A DNA stretch of 64,000 bases, taken from sequence record PZ338877.1; one strand, written 5' to 3'. The DNA is from a phage. The notes beneath the pieces were generated by a model that was given only the letters and a program-made list of their open reading frames with translations, searched no databases and was not told where the DNA came from. Both the position numbers and the translations under genes were made by a program. This document shows, in pieces, positions 26,334 to 31,530 of the stretch; within the stretch, counting starts at the first letter, position 1; the number at the start of each line of letters is the position of its first letter.

Positions 26334-26409
26334 TGGAGAATCCGAAGGGACTCGAACCCTTATAAACCTGTTTTGCAGACAGGCACATATCCATTTCTGT
26401 CACGGATTC
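26334..26409 (-). tRNA. tRNA-Cys (GCA)
   Basis: 7-bp acceptor pairing, T-loop TTCGAGT, anticodon loop CT-GCA-AA on reverse complement. Confidence 0.6.
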
Positions 26410-26413
26410 AAAT

Positions 26414-26506
26414 TGGAGGAAGATACCAGACTTGAACTGGTACACCGATTTCTCAGCTACTGGCAGTTTAGCAAACTGCTCCCTTACCTTTTAGGGTTAA
26501 TCTTCC
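26414..26506 (-). tRNA. tRNA-Ser (GCT), long variable arm
   Basis: 93 nt; acceptor pairing ATCTTCC/GGAAGAT, T-loop TTCAAGT, anticodon loop TT-GCT-AA. Confidence 0.6.
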
Positions 26507-26507
26507 A

Positions 26508-27242
26508 TTATTTCTGTAATGCGTTCTTCATTTCTGGTGTTGCAATAGTGTCAATCACACCAGTTTTACAAGCATCATCAAACCAGTCTGGTAAGATACC
26601 TGCTAAGAACCCATTGATATTCGTTTTAAGGTACTCTGCAATAAGGGCAGCTTCTTCTTCAATCATCTGCACAACTTCATCTGCATAAGCTGTAATCTTC
26701 GAGATACCTTCATTAATCTTACTAACAGCTTGATTAGCTAAATCAGAAATAGTATCAAGACCTTTATCAATAGCATCCTGTAAGTCGCTTAATACACCAT
26801 TAACGCCATCTAGTGTGCTGTTAATTGTATCCATAGCTTTTTGACCATACTCTGTAGCAACACCCATAATACCACTAAATGGTGTACAACCAACTTGCTC
26901 TCCTGCTGCACCCATAACATTGGAGTAGCCTTTTGCTACCTGCATACGTGAGGAAAACTCATCAATAGATTTTTGACCATAATCTGTCAATGTTTTAGTA
27001 GTTGCTGTAGTGCTTGTCAGACTCGTTGTAAAGCTATTAAGCAGAACTGTTGTAAGTCCAGCAGCAATGAGCTTATCCTTCATTGTAGGGTCTGTTACAG
27101 AGCTAATAGAGCTTACAAGTGATGTAGAGGCAGCTACGGTTCCACCTAGAACTGCTGCACCAGTAATAAGGGGATTAGAAAACCCTCTACCGGTTTTTAA
27201 GAGATTAAAAATCTCCTTACCTTGTTCTGTCATCTCTTTCAT
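26508..27242 (-). CDS. hypothetical protein embedded in tRNA cluster
   Basis: Track ORF trimmed to Met22 (AGGTG RBS) because upstream part overlaps a tRNA; 244 aa. Confidence 0.5.
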   Translation of the reverse strand: MKEMTEQGKEIFNLLKTGRGFSNPLITGAAVLGGTVAASTSLVSSISSVTDPTMKDKLIAAGLTTVLLNSFTTSLTSTTATTKTLTDYGQKSIDEFSSRMQVAKGYSNVMGAAGEQVGCTPFSGIMGVATEYGQKAMDTINSTLDGVNGVLSDLQDAIDKGLDTISDLANQAVSKINEGISKITAYADEVVQMIEEEAALIAEYLKTNINGFLAGILPDWFDDACKTGVIDTIATPEMKNALQK

Positions 27243-27260
27243 TAAGCACCTTTGAAATTG

Positions 27261-27335
27261 GTAGTCCAGTGGGATTTGAACCCTCTTCTCATGTTTTTCA
27301 GACACGCGCTTTAACCATATAAGCTACTTGGACTA
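27261..27335 (-). tRNA. tRNA-Phe (GAA)
   Basis: 7-bp acceptor TAGTCCA/TGGACTA, T-loop TTCAAAT, anticodon loop CT-GAA-AA. Confidence 0.55.
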
Positions 27336-27340
27336 TAAAT

Positions 27341-27416
27341 TGGGGTGACCTACGGGATTTGAACCCGTATAGACCATGTTCACAGCATGGGTCATTACCA
27401 TTTATGATAAGGCCAC
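27341..27416 (-). tRNA. tRNA-His (GTG)
   Basis: Acceptor pairing with one G-U, T-loop TTCAAAT, anticodon loop CT-GTG-AA. Confidence 0.6.
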
Positions 27417-27447
27417 ATTTAAGGACTCTCGTAAGAATCCTTAGAAG

Positions 27448-27523
27448 TGGCAGCGGCATAAGGATTTGAACCTTAATAAGACAGCTTCAGAGACTGCTGC
27501 ATTGCCAGTTATGCTATACCGCT
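27448..27523 (-). tRNA. tRNA-Gln (CTG), tentative
   Basis: Acceptor pairing, T-loop TTCAAAT; anticodon loop read as CT-CTG-AA with wobble-rich stem. Confidence 0.45.
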
Positions 27524-27528
27524 AAATT

Positions 27529-27599
27529 TGGTACTCCATATCGGATTCGAACCGATACATAACACAGATTTTAAGTCTGGCCTCTCTGCCAATTGGAGT
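27529..27599 (-). tRNA. tRNA, isotype undetermined (possible TAA anticodon)
   Basis: T-arm ATCGG-TTCGAAT-CCGAT and acceptor pairing clear; anticodon arm ambiguous, short body. Confidence 0.4.
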
Positions 27600-27609
27600 A
27601 ATGGAGCAT

Positions 27610-27685
27610 TGGCGGGGGATGTTGGAATTGAACCAACTTCTTCGATTTCAAAGACCGAGGTTTTAACCTTGTAAACTAATCCCCT
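27610..27685 (-). tRNA. tRNA-Gln (TTG)
   Basis: T-loop TTCAATT, anticodon stem TCGGT/ATCGA, loop CT-TTG-AA. Confidence 0.5.
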
Positions 27686-27693
27686 TTAAATCT

Positions 27694-28251
27694 TTACTTT
27701 CTTAGTGGATGAATAAAGAATGCCAACATAACTCTTTCCCTTGAGAATGCTCTTTCTTCTGGGACAACACTTTTAAGTTTCCATCCAACATAAATTCTCC
27801 AGTAGAATTGTTTACCAAAGACTTTAATTGATGGGATAAAGGCGAATAATCCCCAAGCATTACTGTTCCACATTAGGAGATAACCTGTCTGATTATCTTC
27901 AGGGTCAGAACTTACGTTGATATTACCTTTCCACTTAGTAACATCTTTTACATCTCTTCCTAACACATGGTAAGAGAAGTTATAAGCTTTGTTTCTCCAG
28001 AGCCATCCAACTCTCTGCAAATAGACACCCAGCTTACCAATCTTTCTAATCTTAGCCCATCTTTTAATGTGACCTTCATCACCATCAATTGGGTTGTCAT
28101 ATGTCTCCATCCATCTGAATCCGAAAGGTAGATGTCCTTTCTTCTCACTATAGAATGGAACTACAAAAGGTGCTAAGATAACTGCTAAGGTTGCTGCCAA
28201 TGGGTCTAACAAAGCTAGGAAAATCCATGAAGCATACTTCAAATATCTCAT
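27694..28251 (-). CDS. membrane protein embedded in tRNA cluster
   Basis: 185 aa; hydrophobic N-terminal segments, Trp/Lys-rich. Confidence 0.5.
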   Translation of the reverse strand: MRYLKYASWIFLALLDPLAATLAVILAPFVVPFYSEKKGHLPFGFRWMETYDNPIDGDEGHIKRWAKIRKIGKLGVYLQRVGWLWRNKAYNFSYHVLGRDVKDVTKWKGNINVSSDPEDNQTGYLLMWNSNAWGLFAFIPSIKVFGKQFYWRIYVGWKLKSVVPEERAFSRERVMLAFFIHPLRK

Positions 28252-28270
28252 CTAAATAGCCTCTTTAAAT

Positions 28271-28346
28271 TGGTGCAGGATAAGGGATTCGAACCCCTAT
28301 TAACAGCTTCGTAGACTGCTGCTCTATCCATTTGAACTAATCCTGC
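28271..28346 (-). tRNA. tRNA-Arg (ACG)
   Basis: Exact 7-bp acceptor GCAGGAT/ATCCTGC, T-loop TTCGAAT, anticodon loop CT-ACG-AA. Confidence 0.5.
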
Positions 28347-28460
28347 TTACCTACAAGAACACCATACAGTTTTTCACAATCTTTGTTTTTACGTCTGTTT
28401 AGGTATGACGCTCTAAACTTTTTTGCTATTGACTTATCACTCATAGTGCTCTCCCAAAAT

Positions 28461-30496: not shown

Positions 30497-30628
30497 CCAG
30501 ACCGTTGTTTATCATCTTAAGTGCTACCATTACACCAACTCGACATCTGCCGAGTGAAGGAATCGAACCTTCGCCTTTTCTTTACCGGAGAAATAGATTG
30601 TTTAAGTTTTGCTGTAAACGGTCTTCTG
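30497..30628 (-). ncRNA. candidate Y-RNA-like (YrlA-like) RNA with circularly permuted tRNA-like domain
   Basis: On minus strand: 5' CAGAAGACCGTT ... 3' AACGGTCTGG bulged terminal stem encloses T-arm GAAGG-TTCGATT-CCTTC, then a 7-bp acceptor-like helix closed by AGAT tetraloop (ACTCGGC-AGAT-GTCGAGT), then a D-arm-like GTGTAATGGTAGCAC; no anticodon arm. Confidence 0.4.
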
Positions 30629-30641
30629 TAAATTTGTTGAG

Positions 30642-30725
30642 CCAGACCAAGTTTTAAATTTTTCAAAATTAAATTGGCTTGAAATTTTAAGTAACTTGCT
30701 GTATTTGGTCTTCTGCTCCTTTAAA
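30642..30725 (-). ncRNA. inverted-repeat-bounded structured RNA element (copy 2)
   Basis: Same 5' CAGAAGACC...TACAGCAA and 3' GGTCTGG termini as neighbouring elements; AT-rich interior without tRNA-like domain. Confidence 0.3.
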
Positions 30726-30802
30726 GAATACTCGTAAGAACTCTTTAAGGGAGGGGCTAAATAGCCCTCTCAAAACATCATCTTGAAATACTTATTATAA
30801 TT

Positions 30803-30880
30803 TGGCGGTTACGAAGGGATTTGAACCCTCATCATCTCCCGTGACAGGGGAGTATTTTAACCAGATTAAACTACATAACC
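30803..30880 (-). tRNA. tRNA-Asp (GTC)
   Basis: T-loop TTCAAAT, anticodon stem CTCCC/GGGAG, loop CT-GTC-AC. Confidence 0.6.
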
Positions 30881-30886
30881 TTTATT

Positions 30887-30975
30887 TGGTGTGCCGTGTA
30901 GGAGTCGAACCTACCGAGTCTCAATGACAAGGGATTTACAGTCCCCACCGCTACCATCTACGGGATAACGACACA
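30887..30975 (-). tRNA. tRNA-Tyr (GTA), long variable arm
   Basis: 89 nt; T-arm GTAGG-TTCGACT-CCTAC, anticodon loop CT-GTA-AA. Confidence 0.55.
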
Positions 30976-31045
30976 TTTTATTATTCTATTCAGGCTAAGG
31001 ACTTGCACCTTACAAATCGGTGAGCAATCGCTTCTCTCCTAAATT

Positions 31046-31122
31046 TGGCGGTTAGTCAGGGATTCGAACCCTGTGCCATTCGCTTAACAGGCGACCGCAC
31101 ATACCTTATGTGCTTCCTAACC
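31046..31122 (-). tRNA. tRNA-Asn (GTT)
   Basis: T-arm CAGGG-TTCGAAT-CCCTG, anticodon stem TCGC/GCGA, loop CT-GTT-AA. Confidence 0.6.
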
Positions 31123-31133
31123 TTAATACATTG

Positions 31134-31194
31134 CCAGACCGTGTTTTTTTCTTTTATCCGCAAAAAGTAGTTTGTTGCTGCATACGGTCTTCTG
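31134..31194 (-). ncRNA. inverted-repeat-bounded structured RNA element (copy 3)
   Basis: 5' CAGAAGACCGTATGCAGCAA ... 3' ACGGTCTGG; fills the spacer between two tRNAs. Confidence 0.3.
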
Positions 31195-31200
31195 CAAAAT

Positions 31201-31277
31201 TGGAGGCGGGTGCAGGAGTCGAACCTGCCGATACCATGCTAATGAGACATGTGAGACGCCCTTTCTCTATACCCGCA
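31201..31277 (-). tRNA. tRNA with CAT anticodon (Met/fMet or Ile2)
   Basis: T-arm GCAGG-TTCGACT-CCTGC, acceptor pairing; anticodon loop CT-CAT-TA. Confidence 0.5.
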
Positions 31278-31288
31278 ATTCTTAATGA

Positions 31289-31361
31289 CCAGACCAAATC
31301 TCTTCTTTGTCCGATTTACCTTCAGATGAATAAGATTAAGTTTGCTGTAATTGGTCTTCTG
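31289..31361 (-). ncRNA. inverted-repeat-bounded structured RNA element (copy 4)
   Basis: 5' CAGAAGACCAATTACAGCAA ... 3' TTGGTCTGG; between two tRNAs. Confidence 0.3.
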
Positions 31362-31368
31362 TCAAAAC

Positions 31369-31446
31369 TGGCGTTCCAGAAGGGATTTGAACCCTCAAAT
31401 ATCCACTTTGAAAGAGTGGTGACTTTACCATTTTGTCTACTGGAAC
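31369..31446 (-). tRNA. tRNA-Glu (TTC)
   Basis: Perfect acceptor GTTCCAG/CTGGAAC, T-loop TTCAAAT, anticodon stem CCACT/AGTGG, loop CT-TTC-AA. Confidence 0.6.
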
Positions 31447-31453
31447 ATTAATT

Positions 31454-31530
31454 TGGTCTCTGTTGGAGGACTTGAACCTCCGGCCTTACCGCCCCAAACG
31501 GAACGCTCTACCAAGCTGAGCTAAACAGAG
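31454..31530 (-). tRNA. tRNA-Pro (TGG)
   Basis: Canonical D-arm TAGCTCAGCTTGGTAGAGC, T-arm GGAGG-TTCAAGT-CCTCC, loop TT-TGG-GG. Confidence 0.6.

What the first reader, a model, noticed from the sequence alone, without database searches (positions are those of the whole stretch)
26334..31530. Large tRNA cluster (about 26 genes) with embedded protein genes
At least 26 minus-strand tRNAs, decoded by eye, cover Cys, Ser x2, Phe, His, Gln x2, Arg x2, Thr, Gly, Ala, Lys x2, Ile, Met/CAT x2, Asp, Tyr, Asn, Glu, Pro and Trp. Two protein genes (26508-27242 and the membrane protein 27694-28251) are embedded in the cluster. A repertoire this size suggests codon-usage compensation for an AT-rich phage or a counter to host tRNA-targeting defences such as anticodon nucleases. 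Several ~250-330-bp tRNA-free gaps (29127-29372, 29776-30110, 30346-30496) may hold further non-coding RNAs.
Basis: seen in the sequence. Interest (0 to 1): 0.45.

Follow-up and report, generated by a model that had tools for sequence, protein, structure and literature searches.

The report
tRNA cluster hiding Ro/Y-like RNAs
The 26-tRNA cluster is a known hallmark of Felix O1-like phages, but its spacers hold four small structured RNAs that share the defining features of the orphan 'Class I' RNAs of social amoebae and that lie beside a Ro60-like protein gene in many unrelated phages, pointing to an unrecognised Ro/Y-RNA-type particle.

Summary
Observation confirmed: ARAGORN finds exactly 26 minus-strand tRNAs at 26334-31530, with two embedded ORFs (DUF7217, DUF7338). 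The window is a Felixounavirus, and this cluster is published and present in over 230 GenBank phages, so the cluster itself is ordinary. Its 'Trp' is a non-canonical CCA-anticodon tRNA-like element that standard tools do not call.

Best reading: a Y-RNA-like partner family for a Ro60-like phage protein. Binding, expression and the amoeba protein link are untested.

The parts
26334..31530 (-). Cluster of 26 tRNA genes: Cys, Ser-GCU, Phe, His, Gln-CUG, Leu-UAA, Gln-UUG, Arg-ACG, Leu-CAA, Val, Thr, Gly, Ala, Lys-CUU, Leu-UAG, Ser-UGA, Arg-UCU, Ile, Met, Lys-UUU, Asp, Tyr, Asn, Met, Glu, Pro. They cover 19 amino acids.
   Evidence: ARAGORN; Rfam; the same set is annotated in relatives.
31696..33111 (-). 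Ro60-like protein gene (471 aa; Pfam DUF2828 + DUF7788; PHROG 850 'RNA-binding protein'). Predicted HEAT-repeat ring plus vWA domain, with an intact MIDAS motif (D279-x-S281-x-S283, T349, D381).
31290..31358 (-). Unit 1: short Class I/Y-like RNA module (69 nt, AAG...CUG core), between tRNA-Glu and tRNA-Met.
   Evidence: 20-mer motif: 4 hits in the window vs 0.15 expected; shared fold; phage-only model R2 35.6 bits, E 9e-6.
31135..31191 (-). Unit 2: short module (57 nt), between tRNA-Met and tRNA-Asn.
   Evidence: R2 30.4 bits, E 1.6e-4.
30643..30712 (-). Unit 3: short module (70 nt).
   Evidence: R2 39.9 bits, E 8e-7; weak Rfam RF01414 Class I RNA alignment.
30498..30625 (-). Unit 4: long module (128 nt) with the same termini. 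It encloses a permuted tRNA-like domain: T-arm 30572-30556, loop-closed 7-bp acceptor-like stem 30555-30538, UG, D-arm 30535-30521. This is the YrlA topology.
   Evidence: Fold; long-module model R3 63.4 bits, E 1e-12, the top hit; 98-100% identical in 7 relatives; partial Rfam tRNA hit.
29474..29556 (-). Non-canonical tRNA-Trp(CCA)-like element with about 8 extra nt before the D stem. It may be the missing 20th specificity.
   Evidence: Rfam tRNA-Sec model 23 bits; cloverleaf fold, z -2.2; anticodon arm conserved in 6 of 7 Felix-like loci, Moogle and L007.
29776..30062 (-). Structured RNA of about 290 nt with a tmRNA-like tag-coding domain: 29929-29900 encodes ANDNVFLAVA, followed by stops at 29899-29894. 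No tRNA-like domain in cis. It abuts tRNA-Arg(UCU).
   Evidence: Rfam tmRNA and permuted-tmRNA sub-threshold hits; ARAGORN tag call in Moogle; only silent changes in Moogle; z -5.2.
30068..30096 (-). Best promoter-like site in the region (TTGACA-17-TATAGT, 11 of 12), just upstream of the tmRNA-like RNA.
   Evidence: The total count of promoter-like sites is not above chance.
31557..31677 (-). Two promoter-like sites (31677-31649 and 31586-31557) between the Ro60-like gene and the first tRNA.
   Evidence: consensus matches only.
30347..30496 (-). Very stable long hairpin (-56.5 kcal/mol, z -6.3) that is absent from most close relatives. A strain-specific insertion, not a conserved ncRNA.
29117..29370 (-). 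Structured spacer (z -3.2) with a long 3' hairpin, conserved among Felix-like phages; unassigned.
26508..27242 (-). Embedded ORF, DUF7217 / phrog_2114; function unknown.
   Evidence: weak coiled-coil-type hits only.
27694..28251 (-). Embedded ORF, DUF7338 / phrog_2143, with a hydrophobic N-terminus; function unknown.

Best explanation
The region is the standard Felixounavirus tRNA operon. It lies downstream of a Ro60-like gene and upstream of the terminase gene. It is probably transcribed from promoters at about 31677/31586 and 30096 as polycistronic precursors that host RNase P and other tRNA-processing nucleases cut up (inferred).

Interleaved with the tRNAs are four genes for small non-coding RNAs of one family. 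Each is a hairpin-closed RNA that starts AAG and ends CUG, with the G pairing with the C. It has a 7-8 bp terminal stem whose sequence is free to vary, an unpaired UACAGCAA immediately after the 5' stem strand, and a variable interior. Three are short (57-70 nt). One is long (128 nt) and carries a permuted tRNA mimic (T-arm, closed acceptor stem, D-arm), as bacterial YrlA Y RNAs do.

I propose that these RNAs are the cognate partners of the adjacent Ro60-like DUF2828 protein. The conserved AAG/CUG-closed stem plus the UACAGCAA motif would be the protein-binding site, by analogy with the GNCGAA or GGUCCGA site of Y RNAs. The variable or tRNA-like part would be the effector or tether end. The resulting particle would act in structured-RNA (tRNA) quality control, decay or repair during infection.

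Shown here: the tRNAs; the Ro60 fold prediction; the RNA family, its structure and its strand- and position-specific association with DUF2828 genes; and the resemblance to YrlA and to amoeba Class I RNAs. Inferred: expression as stable RNAs, physical binding and biological role.
For: tRNAs and lineage.

RNA family in the window: the 20-mer occurs 4 times vs 0.15 expected. The four copies share a common fold with co-varying outer and inner helices.

Association with the gene:
- A strict descriptor gives 76 hits on the gene strand, 1 on the other strand and 0-1 in shuffles. 44 of 75 diverse loci are hit, and 46 of 76 hits lie within 500 nt of the gene.
- In a replication set of 80 fresh genome loci, the phage-only model R2 gives 64 hits at E<=0.1, all on the gene strand, in 41 of 80 loci.
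- There are no hits in the T5, T4-like and rV5 tRNA regions.
- The motif is present in cultured Listeria, Staphylococcus and Mycobacterium phages.

Membership of the window's units: R2 scores U3, U1 and U2 at E 8e-7, 9e-6 and 1.6e-4, and these are the only significant hits in 64 kb. R3 scores U4 at 63.4 bits, E 1e-12.

Y-RNA likeness: gene-proximal and on the same strand, as Chen 2014 reported for YrlA. Rfam YrlA aligns full length to long modules (E 1.7e-7 in a narrow search).

RNA-repair context: the Listeria phage AG20 locus runs tRNA cluster, Ro-like gene, RtcB-type ligase, RNA ligase. LeBron encodes an RNA ligase and a polynucleotide kinase, and its gp53 is toxic when over-expressed alone.
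Against: There is no expression or binding data for any of these RNAs. The Ro60 assignment rests on a predicted structure at 12-16% identity, and Pfam TROVE does not hit the protein. The motif differs from the known Ro60-binding motifs (GNCGAAN0-1G, GGUCCGA). Rfam YrlA and Class I hits are all below the gathering scores, and the window's own units are not found by Rfam YrlA or by the amoeba-only model at E<=1. The 99.6% pairing in alignment A3 is partly by construction, because those sequences were picked with a pairing descriptor. Roughly 40-50% of DUF2828 loci show no hit, and Campylobacter F358 and Sinorhizobium phiM7 show none. Many 'genome' loci are MAG contigs that may be phage.
Confidence: 0.7

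Rival explanations
1. The modules are only spacers or processing signals of the polycistronic tRNA precursor, for example nuclease entry or protection hairpins, with no function of their own and no relation to the neighbouring protein.
For: They sit between tRNAs in the window. Other spacers in the cluster also fold stably. T5 and T4 clusters also contain stable by-product-like RNAs of unknown function (own knowledge for T4).
Against: Many DUF2828 loci with no tRNA nearby still carry the module directly after or before the gene, for example L010, L011, L014, L015, L018-L021, L025 and L026. tRNA clusters of phages lacking DUF2828 have none. An invariant unpaired CAGCAA together with free stem sequences argues for a specific ligand.
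Confidence: 0.08
2. The modules are cis-acting regulatory elements of the DUF2828 mRNA: autoregulatory protein-binding sites in its leader or trailer, rather than independent trans-acting RNAs.
For: They are on the same strand and usually within 500 nt of the gene, mostly upstream in the replication set.
Against: They occur in 2-7 copies, on either side of the gene. In the window they are separated from it by promoter-like sites and several tRNAs. Some lie 5-7 kb away inside tRNA clusters. The look-alike amoeba RNAs are abundant free cytoplasmic RNAs of about 60 nt. Bona fide Y RNAs show the same gene-proximal, same-strand layout.
Confidence: 0.12
3. The phage RNAs are real partners of DUF2828, but their likeness to Dictyostelium Class I RNAs is convergence or coincidence. 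On this view the amoeba RNAs have nothing to do with DUF2828 proteins.
For: The shared features are short: one G-C pair, 6-8 motif nucleotides and CUG. Rfam RF01414 scores stay below gathering (30.8 vs 41.5 bits). The known direct binder of Class I RNA is an RRM protein, Rnp1A/CIBP. I could not show that Dictyostelia encode DUF2828.
Against: A model trained only on 44 amoeba RNAs finds 25 phage sites at E<=1 (best 4e-5), all on the gene strand, with 17 of 25 within 500 nt of the gene, plus 7 of 7 on the gene strand in the replication set. The two classes agree in start (AAG), stem length and covariation, motif position and sequence, an A-rich stretch before the 3' stem, end (CUG) and median length (56 vs 58 nt). 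Both classes include rarer long members with a T-arm. One of the four Class I pull-down proteins, DDB_G0281243, is of unknown function. DUF2828 occurs in eukaryotes: it appears in four plant papers.
Confidence: 0.4
4. The long module (unit 4) and the Trp-like element are tRNA decoys or spare parts aimed at host tRNA-targeting defences, acting independently of the Ro60-like protein.
For: Unit 4 mimics tRNA T, acceptor and D elements.
Against: Unit 4 lacks an anticodon arm, which is the target of anticodon nucleases. It shares its termini and motif with the three short units that have no tRNA features. The Sf14 analysis found no support for nuclease escape in this lineage.
Confidence: 0.05

Closest known systems
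Felix O1 / Ounavirinae tRNA gene cluster
   Same: Same lineage, same gene order (DUF5681, Ro-like gene, tRNAs, terminase, portal) and the same 26 tRNAs covering 19 amino acids, at 95-97% DNA identity to many records.
   Different: Nothing differs for the tRNAs themselves. None of the six annotated records I inspected (pinkbiff, pEP20, Moogle, P778, Staph S-CoN_Ph16, LeBron) marks the four RNA modules, the Trp-like element or the tmRNA-like tag.
Bacterial Ro60 (Rsr) with YrlA/YrlB Y RNAs (Chen et al. 2014, PMC4201824)
   Same: A ring plus vWA protein, with one long tRNA-mimicking RNA (V-T-AS-D order) and shorter RNAs encoded nearby on the same strand. A terminal stem is formed by the two ends, with a short conserved motif near the 5' end. 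RtcB-type RNA-repair genes lie nearby in some loci.
   Different: The protein is DUF2828/DUF7788 rather than Pfam TROVE, at 12-16% identity. The motif is UACAGCAA with an AAG/CUG closure rather than GNCGAAN0-1G. Rfam YrlA scores are sub-threshold. That survey covered only TROVE-annotated genomes.
Thermus phage phiLo Ro60 with Yrl1/Yrl2 (PMC12135203)
   Different: phiLo Ro60 is a canonical TROVE protein, and its RNAs carry the CGAA motif. It has no Class I-type termini and no link to a tRNA cluster.
Dictyostelid Class I RNAs (Rfam RF01414; Kjellin et al. 2021, PMC7919456)
   Same: AAG start with an invariant G paired to the C of the 3' CUG(U). A 6-8 bp terminal stem conserved in structure only. 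The (CC)UUACAGCAA motif abuts the 5' strand. Variable A-rich interior, about 56-58 nt median length, and rare T-arm-bearing long members.
   Different: They are eukaryotic, dispersed multi-copy genes with a DUSE promoter, reported as unique to Dictyostelia. The known direct binder is the RRM protein Rnp1A. Rfam gathering is not reached by any phage copy, and the window's copies have a 3x1 internal loop below the stem.
Stable small RNAs inside the phage T5 tRNA cluster (and, from my own knowledge, the T4 cluster)
   Same: Small RNAs of unknown function encoded between phage tRNA genes and presumably released by tRNA-processing enzymes (T5 annotation; T4 species 1/2 RNAs from own knowledge).
   Different: Neither model hits the T5 or T4-like clusters. 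No T5, T4-like or rV5 record appeared among the 60 sampled tblastn rows, but I did not check those genomes directly for a DUF2828 gene.
tmRNA (SsrA)
   Same: Gap C carries a resume-codon context and a tag, ANDNVFLAVA, followed by two stops. This is close to the E. coli tag ANDENYALAA (own knowledge). The stops sit in a hairpin.
   Different: There is no tRNA-like domain in cis and the scores are far below gathering. ARAGORN's permuted call in Moogle borrows the tRNA-like part from the unit 4 equivalent, across three intervening tRNA genes.

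Membership tests
Felixounavirus tRNA cluster | More than 20 same-strand tRNA genes between the DUF2828 gene and the large terminase gene, with high DNA identity to Felix O1-like phages. | tested here: met
   26 tRNAs; 231 records cover more than 80% of the region; identical order in pinkbiff and pEP20.
Ro60 / TROVE proteins | HEAT-repeat ring followed by a vWA domain (overall fold). | tested here: met
Ro60 / TROVE proteins | Sequence membership: a Pfam TROVE PF05731 hit or a phmmer hit to solved Ro60 structures. 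| tested here: not met
   Pfam gives only DUF2828 + DUF7788. phmmer against the PDB finds nothing relevant.
Ro60 / TROVE proteins | MIDAS motif (DxSxS...T...D) in the vWA domain. | tested here: met
   D279, S281, S283, T349 and D381 are invariant in 48 homologues.
Ro60 / TROVE proteins | Binds Y RNA or misfolded RNA. | not testable with these tools
   Needs EMSA, RIP or a structure.
Y RNA / YrlA (RF02553) | Encoded within a few kb of the Ro60 gene and on the same strand. | tested here: met
   The window's units lie 0.3-1.2 kb downstream on the same strand. Across loci the strand ratios are 76:1 and 64:0.
Y RNA / YrlA (RF02553) | The 5' and 3' ends pair to form a terminal stem. | tested here: met
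   Covariation occurs between paralogues and across lineages. The A3 pairing is partly by construction; models R1, R2 and R3 and the strand bias are independent evidence.
Y RNA / YrlA (RF02553) | tRNA-like domain (V, T, closed acceptor, D) in at least one RNA per locus. | tested here: met
   Unit 4 fold; R3 63.4 bits; Rfam YrlA aligns full length to homologous long modules.
Y RNA / YrlA (RF02553) | Conserved GNCGAAN0-1G (bacterial) or GGUCCGA (metazoan) Ro60-binding motif. | tested here: not met
   The motif is (U)ACAGCAA at the equivalent position.
Y RNA / YrlA (RF02553) | Reaches the Rfam gathering score (69 bits). | tested here: not met
   Best 38.9 bits, in L079. No YrlA hit on the window's unit 4.
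Dictyostelid Class I RNA (RF01414) | AAG start, with the invariant G paired to the C of the 3' CUG(U). | tested here: met
   G4 and C72 are invariant in 37 phage modules, with TG following in 32 of the 37 and AG in the other five. The window's units read AAGACC...GGUCUG. Feature definition.
Dictyostelid Class I RNA (RF01414) | Short terminal stem conserved in structure but not in sequence. | tested here: met
Dictyostelid Class I RNA (RF01414) | 11-nt motif next to the 5' stem strand, with U3, C6, C9, A10 and A11 near-invariant. | tested here: met
   CAGCAA is invariant and the preceding U is at least 90% conserved in A3. The window's units carry UACAGCAA or UGCAGCAA.
Dictyostelid Class I RNA (RF01414) | Length about 42-72 nt (median about 56-60). 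| tested here: met
   Units 1-3 are 57-70 nt and the phage median is 58 nt. Unit 4 (128 nt) corresponds to the rare long members.
Dictyostelid Class I RNA (RF01414) | Detected by a covariance model of amoeba sequences, or reaches Rfam gathering (41.5 bits). | tested here: inconclusive
   The amoeba-only model R1 finds 25 + 7 phage copies (best 37 bits, E 9e-6) but not the window's own units at E<=1. The Rfam best is 30.8 bits, and the window's unit 3 scores 15.3 bits.
Dictyostelid Class I RNA (RF01414) | DUSE promoter about 60 nt upstream; dictyostelid genome. | tested here: not met
   These are phage loci with bacterial-type promoters. The feature is eukaryote-specific.
tmRNA | Tag reading frame with a resume codon and terminal hydrophobic residues, followed by stops. 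| tested here: met
   ANDNVFLAVA** at 29929-29894.
tmRNA | Alanine-accepting tRNA-like domain contiguous with, or paired to, the coding part; Rfam gathering score. | tested here: not met
   The Rfam hits cover only the coding and pseudoknot part, at 15.9-20.3 bits against a gathering score of 47. ARAGORN does not call it in the window.

The most novel reading that the evidence does not exclude
The phage modules and the Class I RNAs of dictyostelid amoebae are one ancient RNA class, and that class is the dedicated partner of DUF2828/DUF7788 Ro60-like proteins. This would be a second Ro/Y-type ribonucleoprotein system, so far unrecognised, with short (about 60 nt) and long (tRNA-mimicking) RNA forms. 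It would span thousands of phage lineages and at least one eukaryotic group. The uncharacterised Class I RNA pull-down protein DDB_G0281243 would be the prime candidate for the amoeba partner.
Probability: 0.4. Interest if true: 0.9.

Novelty: new variant of a known kind. Interest (0 to 1): 0.78.

Why it matters
The tRNA cluster itself adds nothing new. The RNAs inside it would matter for four reasons.

1. They would give a function and a ligand to DUF2828/DUF7788, a family of about 8,700 clusters at 50% identity. The family is found in Felix O1, Listeria P100/A511-type, staphylococcal, mycobacterial, vibrio and jumbo phages, several of which are used in biocontrol or therapy.

2. They would extend the Ro60/Y RNA paradigm to a divergent protein clade with its own RNA code. 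That offers a natural experiment on how Ro-type rings recognise RNA.

3. They would give a concrete, testable hypothesis for the function of Dictyostelium Class I RNAs. These were discovered in 2004, are abundant and developmentally important, and were reported as unique to Dictyostelia.

4. They show that inspected phage annotations hide real RNA genes under spurious small ORFs (for example in Staphylococcus phage S-CoN_Ph16 and Yersinia phage P778).

The system is directly tractable in Felix O1/Salmonella, P100/Listeria and LeBron/M. smegmatis.

Tried and rejected
- I first read the repeated CAGAAGACC/GGTCTGG pairs as possibly flanking the tRNAs. I rejected this because helix extension and covariation run inward, so the helix encloses the spacer.
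- phmmer of the protein against the PDB gave nothing. Fold comparison was needed.
- The AFDB library was unavailable, so eukaryotic structural neighbours could not be listed.
- I could not determine whether Dictyostelium DDB_G0281243 is a DUF2828 protein. Literature searches gave nothing. The proteome in the Kjellin supplement is truncated before that gene. Avesson 2011 is not held. The exhaustive protein search lists only the top 150, all phage-type.
- Rfam on the window's unit 4 gave no YrlA hit. The amoeba-only model did not reach the window's units. Membership was instead shown with phage-only models that excluded Felix-like sequences.
- Gap D looked like a strong ncRNA candidate (z -6.3) but is absent from most close relatives, so I rejected it as a conserved element.
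- I judged ARAGORN's 749-nt permuted tmRNA in Moogle to be a composite of two separate real features, not one gene.
- The number of promoter-like sites is not above chance. I cite only individual strong matches, and only as candidates.
- PADLOC and NCBIfam have nothing for the Ro-like protein.

Full report
**1. The observation**

ARAGORN finds 26 tRNA genes, all on the minus strand, from 26334 to 31530. Rfam scores 23 of them as tRNA above the gathering score. Two long-arm tRNAs match the tRNA-Sec model below threshold. One Met-CAU gene (31201-31277) has no Rfam hit but is annotated as tRNA-Met in relatives.

The 26 genes cover 19 amino acids; only Trp is missing. The embedded ORFs are DUF7217 (26508-27242) and DUF7338 (27694-28251). 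Downstream lie a T4-type large terminase and a Mu-type portal, so this is a phage.

**2. What the cluster is**

The region is 95-97% identical to many Felixounavirus genomes, and 231 GenBank phage records cover more than 80% of it. Large tRNA sets are a published hallmark of this group: Felix O1 has 22, wV8 23 and Sf14 26 tRNAs for 19 amino acids. As a tRNA cluster, the finding is already known.

Codons read directly by the phage tRNAs are relatively over-used in the phage (mean phage/E. coli ratio 1.65 vs 1.03, p 0.015; AGA 8-fold). The E. coli table was entered from memory. For Sf14, published analyses excluded escape from anticodon nucleases and favoured late-gene translation after host shut-down.

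**3. A repeated RNA module in the spacers**

Reading the minus strand, I saw a recurring CAGAAGACC-N3-(U/G)RCAGCAA ... GGUCUGG. The 20-mer occurs four times in the 64-kb window against 0.15 expected by chance, and all four copies are in the upstream part of the cluster. Each pair of motifs encloses the segment between them:

| Unit | Core coordinates (minus strand, AAG to CUG) | Length |
|---|---|---|
| 1 | 31358-31290 | 69 nt |
| 2 | 31191-31135 | 57 nt |
| 3 | 30712-30643 | 70 nt |
| 4 | 30625-30498 | 128 nt |

All four fold alike. There is an outer 3-4 bp helix whose sequence co-varies between copies (UGAC/GUCA, UGC/GCA, GAGC/GCUC, UAC/GUA). Then comes a 3x1 internal loop, then a 7-8 bp helix AGACCNN/NNGGUCU with co-varying NN, then an unpaired (U)ACAGCAA.

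Unit 4 also contains a T-arm (GAAGG-UUCGAUU-CCUUC), a 7-bp acceptor-like stem closed by a 4-nt loop, UG, and a D-arm (GUGU-AAUGGUA-GCAC). This permuted tRNA has the topology that Chen et al. 2014 described for bacterial YrlA Y RNAs (5' motif, V, T, AS, D). Unit 4 is 98-100% identical in seven relatives, which is more conserved than some tRNA stretches.

**4. The neighbouring protein has the Ro60 fold**

The gene immediately upstream on the same strand (31696-33111) belongs to Pfam DUF2828 + DUF7788 and to PHROG 850, 'RNA-binding protein'. Sequence search against the PDB finds nothing.

Mycobacteriophage members at 31-34% identity are already annotated 'Ro-like RNA binding protein'. The family is very large: 8,749 clusters at 50% identity. 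The published Y RNA survey covered only genomes annotated with a TROVE domain. I found no paper linking DUF2828 to an RNA partner.

**5. The RNA follows the protein across phage diversity**

I fetched 80 loci around DUF2828 homologues from viral contigs. Most share only 39-47% protein identity with the window's protein.

The divergent 88-kb phage L007 keeps the layout. Its inter-tRNA gaps hold modules whose helices are entirely different in sequence but whose flanks are the same (A-AGR-helix-UUCAGCAA ... helix'-YCU-G), and one of them has a T-arm.

A strict descriptor gave 76 hits on the gene's strand, 1 on the opposite strand and 0-1 in ten shuffles. It hit 44 of 75 non-Felix loci, and 46 of the 76 hits lie within 500 nt of the gene. 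Many of these loci have no tRNA at all, so the module goes with the gene and not with tRNAs.

I built a covariance model (R2) from 37 short modules of non-Felix loci. In that alignment G4, CAGCAA, C72 and G74 are invariant. R2 finds units 3, 1 and 2 as the only significant hits in the window (E 8e-7, 9e-6 and 1.6e-4; next best 0.17).

A model of six long modules from unrelated phages (R3) scores unit 4 at 63.4 bits (E 1e-12). Ordinary tRNAs, including those of control phages, stay at or below 33.5 bits.

Replication used 80 further loci from the bacterial/archaeal genome collection, which were not used to build anything. R2 gave 64 hits at E<=0.1, all on the gene strand, in 41 of 80 loci, most within 500 nt upstream of the gene.

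As negative controls, 56 kb of the T5, T4-like and rV5 tRNA regions gave no hits.

Cultured phages carry the module too:
- Listeria phage AG20 has three modules in tandem just upstream of the gene.
- Staphylococcus phage S-CoN_Ph16 has one, 18 nt after the gene and hidden under a 30-codon ORF.
- Mycobacteriophage LeBron has two weaker ones.
- Moogle has three and Yersinia phage P778 has two.

One caveat: the near-perfect pairing in alignment A3 is partly by construction. The strand bias, the position bias, the replication set and the cross-trained models are the independent evidence.

**6. Relation to Y RNAs**

Rfam's YrlA model gives sub-threshold but significant, full-length alignments to long modules in other loci. 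The best is L079 12497-12612, at 38.9 bits and E 1.7e-7 in a narrow search. The T-arm, closed acceptor and D-arm align, and the module's CAGCAA falls where YrlA has its proposed Ro60-binding GNCGAA.

The gene-proximal, same-strand layout is what was reported for bacterial Y RNAs. The context also fits. In Listeria phage AG20 the order is tRNA cluster, Ro-like gene, RtcB-type ligase, RNA ligase, which recalls the bacterial rsr-yrlBA-rtcBA operon. LeBron encodes an RNA ligase and a polynucleotide kinase, and its Ro-like gp53 is toxic when over-expressed alone.

The system fails sequence-level membership, however. There is no TROVE hit, no GNCGAA motif, and no score reaching Rfam gathering.

**7. 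Relation to amoeba Class I RNAs**

A narrow Rfam search aligned unit 3 weakly to RF01414, 'Class I RNA from Dictyostelium'. A module in L023 scored 30.8 bits against a gathering score of 41.5.

Kjellin et al. 2021 define Class I RNAs by these features:
- a conserved AAG start, whose G pairs with the C of a conserved 3' CUGU;
- a stem of about 6 bp conserved in structure only;
- an 11-nt motif (CCUUACAGCAA) abutting the 5' strand;
- a variable remainder, with a median length of about 60 nt.

They conclude that the class is unique to Dictyostelia. The short phage modules share the start, stem, motif, end and length features. Median lengths are 58 vs 56 nt, and both have an A-rich stretch before the 3' strand.

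I built a model (R1) from 44 published amoeba sequences only. In 1.14 Mb of phage loci it finds 25 sites at E<=1 (best 4e-5). All 25 are on the DUF2828 strand and full length, and 17 lie within 500 nt of the gene. It also finds 7 of 7 on the gene strand in the replication set, and the Staphylococcus phage copy at E 1.7e-5.

Some amoeba members (asu_can_20, ppa_can_99, DpuR-22) carry T-arm-like hairpins, which parallels the long phage form.

Four proteins were pulled down with Class I RNA DdR-21: GuaB, NdkC, the RRM protein Rnp1A/CIBP, and DDB_G0281243 of unknown function. I could not determine whether DDB_G0281243 is a DUF2828 protein. DUF2828 does occur in eukaryotes, since it appears in four plant papers. 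No paper in the library mentions Class I RNAs together with Ro60 or Y RNAs.

**8.

- Gap 29776-30110 is a highly structured RNA (z -5.2) with the best promoter-like site of the region just upstream. It has a tmRNA-like tag frame, ANDNVFLAVA plus two stops. The frame is unchanged in Felix-like phages and carries only silent changes in Moogle. It has no tRNA-like domain in cis.
- Gap 29127-29372 is structured (z -3.2) and conserved among Felix-like phages, but unassigned.
- Gap 30346-30496 is a very stable hairpin (z -6.3) that is absent from most close relatives, so it is a strain-specific insertion.
- A fourth gap holds the Trp(CCA)-like element at 29556-29474.

**9. Mechanism proposed**

Steps shown:
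- the tRNA operon;
- the Ro60-fold prediction;
- the RNA family and its gene-linked, strand-specific distribution;
- its YrlA-like long form and Class I-like short form.

Steps inferred:
- The RNAs are released from the polycistronic precursor by tRNA-processing enzymes.
- The AAG/CUG-closed stem plus UACAGCAA is the docking site for the Ro60-like protein.
- The variable or tRNA-like end tethers or gates another factor, by analogy with Y RNA tethering Ro60 to PNPase.
- The particle serves quality control, decay or repair of tRNA and other structured RNA during infection.

A side inference concerns origin. Adjacent tRNA genes give weak hits to the long-module model, from the T-arm of one tRNA plus the D-arm of the next. 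One module encloses a whole tRNA. The permuted tRNA mimic may therefore have arisen from a junction of tandem tRNA copies.

**10. Verdict**

The flagged feature is real, and as a tRNA cluster it is ordinary. What makes the locus interesting is a previously unannotated RNA family, tied to a Ro60-like protein family of great breadth, with an unexpected resemblance to an orphan eukaryotic ncRNA class. I rate the phage protein-RNA partnership as likely (about 0.7), the common identity with amoeba Class I RNAs as open (about 0.4-0.6), and everything about function as hypothesis.

Noticed in passing
window 29776-30062 (-), tag frame 29929-29894: A tmRNA-like coding element: AUAAAU-GCA AAC GAC AAU GUU UUU CUG GCA GUA GCU-UGA UAG, encoding ANDNVFLAVA**. 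It lies in a strongly structured RNA (z -5.2) with its own promoter-like site, has no tRNA-like domain in cis and abuts tRNA-Arg(UCU). It is identical in Felix-like phages, and Moogle has only a synonymous change and a stop-to-stop change.
   Followed up: partly
window 29474-29556 (-); L007 about 12000-12070 (+): A tRNA-Trp(CCA)-like gene with a canonical anticodon loop, T-loop, G73 and CCA but an aberrant D region (about 8 extra nt in the window, shortened in L007). ARAGORN misses it. It would supply the only amino acid not covered by the 26 tRNAs.
   Followed up: partly
window 30347-30496 (-): A 150-nt near-perfect hairpin (-56.5 kcal/mol, z -6.3) found in this phage but absent from most close relatives. 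Its 5' arm repeats GCAGUAGCUU..GGCUAA from the end of the tmRNA-like tag. It may be a small mobile or duplicated element.
   Followed up: partly
window 31201-31277 (-): The tRNA-Met(CAU) lying between units 1 and 2 is called by ARAGORN and annotated in relatives, but has no Rfam tRNA hit at E<=1. Its D region looks atypical.
   Followed up: no
L083 (Listeria phage vB_LmoM_AG20) 450-11455: A neighbourhood of tRNA cluster, RaiA-like protein, three RNA modules, Ro60-like gene, phosphohydrolase, RtcB-type 'tRNA splicing ligase', 'tRNA amidotransferase' and RNA ligase. This looks like an RNA-repair island resembling the bacterial rsr-yrl-rtcBA operon.
   Followed up: partly
L008-L066; L023 8605-9054: 25 of 60 diverse DUF2828 loci have tRNA genes within 8 kb, all on the gene's strand. 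Several have bona fide tmRNA genes nearby (L023, L028, L032, L037, L038, L048, L051).
   Followed up: partly
L042 7734-7834 (+): One module's AAG...CUG stem and UUCAGCAA motif enclose a complete, normally ordered tRNA-Thr. Together with weak long-module hits across adjacent tRNA pairs, this hints at how the tRNA-mimicking form arose.
   Followed up: no
L089 (Citrobacter phage Moogle NC_027293), L090 (Yersinia phage P778), L086 (Staphylococcus phage S-CoN_Ph16), L001 (phage pinkbiff): Annotation problems. Moogle's tRNAs are recorded on the wrong strand: ARAGORN puts all of them on the Ro-like gene's strand. P778 has no tRNAs annotated although ARAGORN finds 26, and short 'hypothetical' ORFs are annotated across the region instead. 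A 30-codon CDS covers the RNA module in S-CoN_Ph16. Pinkbiff_40 overlaps tRNA genes.
   Followed up: partly
L089 10382-11130 (+): ARAGORN calls a 749-nt permuted tmRNA in Moogle. The call joins the tRNA-like domain of the unit 4 equivalent to the tag in the gap C equivalent, across three tRNA genes. It is probably a composite artefact of two real elements.
   Followed up: partly
Kjellin 2021 supplement: asu_can_20, ppa_can_99, DpuR-22: Some published amoeba Class I RNAs contain canonical T-arm-like hairpins (GGUUCGAnnCC). In asu_can_20 this is followed by a closed stem, as in YrlA-like RNAs.
   Followed up: no
window 30719-30802 (-) and 29117-29370 (-): Further spacers fold significantly better than shuffles (z -3.0 and -3.2). 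They contain GC-rich hairpins and long AU-rich palindromes (CUUUAAAG...CUUUAAAG-type) that recur at the 3' ends of several gaps. They may be processing or termination signals.
   Followed up: no
L091 (phage T5) 12547-15346: The T5 tRNA region carries six annotated stable RNAs (rna1, rna2, RNAI, RNAIII, RNAIV, RNA2H) of unknown function. None matches the module models.
   Followed up: partly
window 26508-27242 (-): The embedded DUF7217 protein gives only weak coiled-coil-type similarities (tape-measure PHROGs, ZorA-like at E about 2e-3). Its function and its reason for sitting inside the tRNA cluster remain unknown.
   Followed up: no
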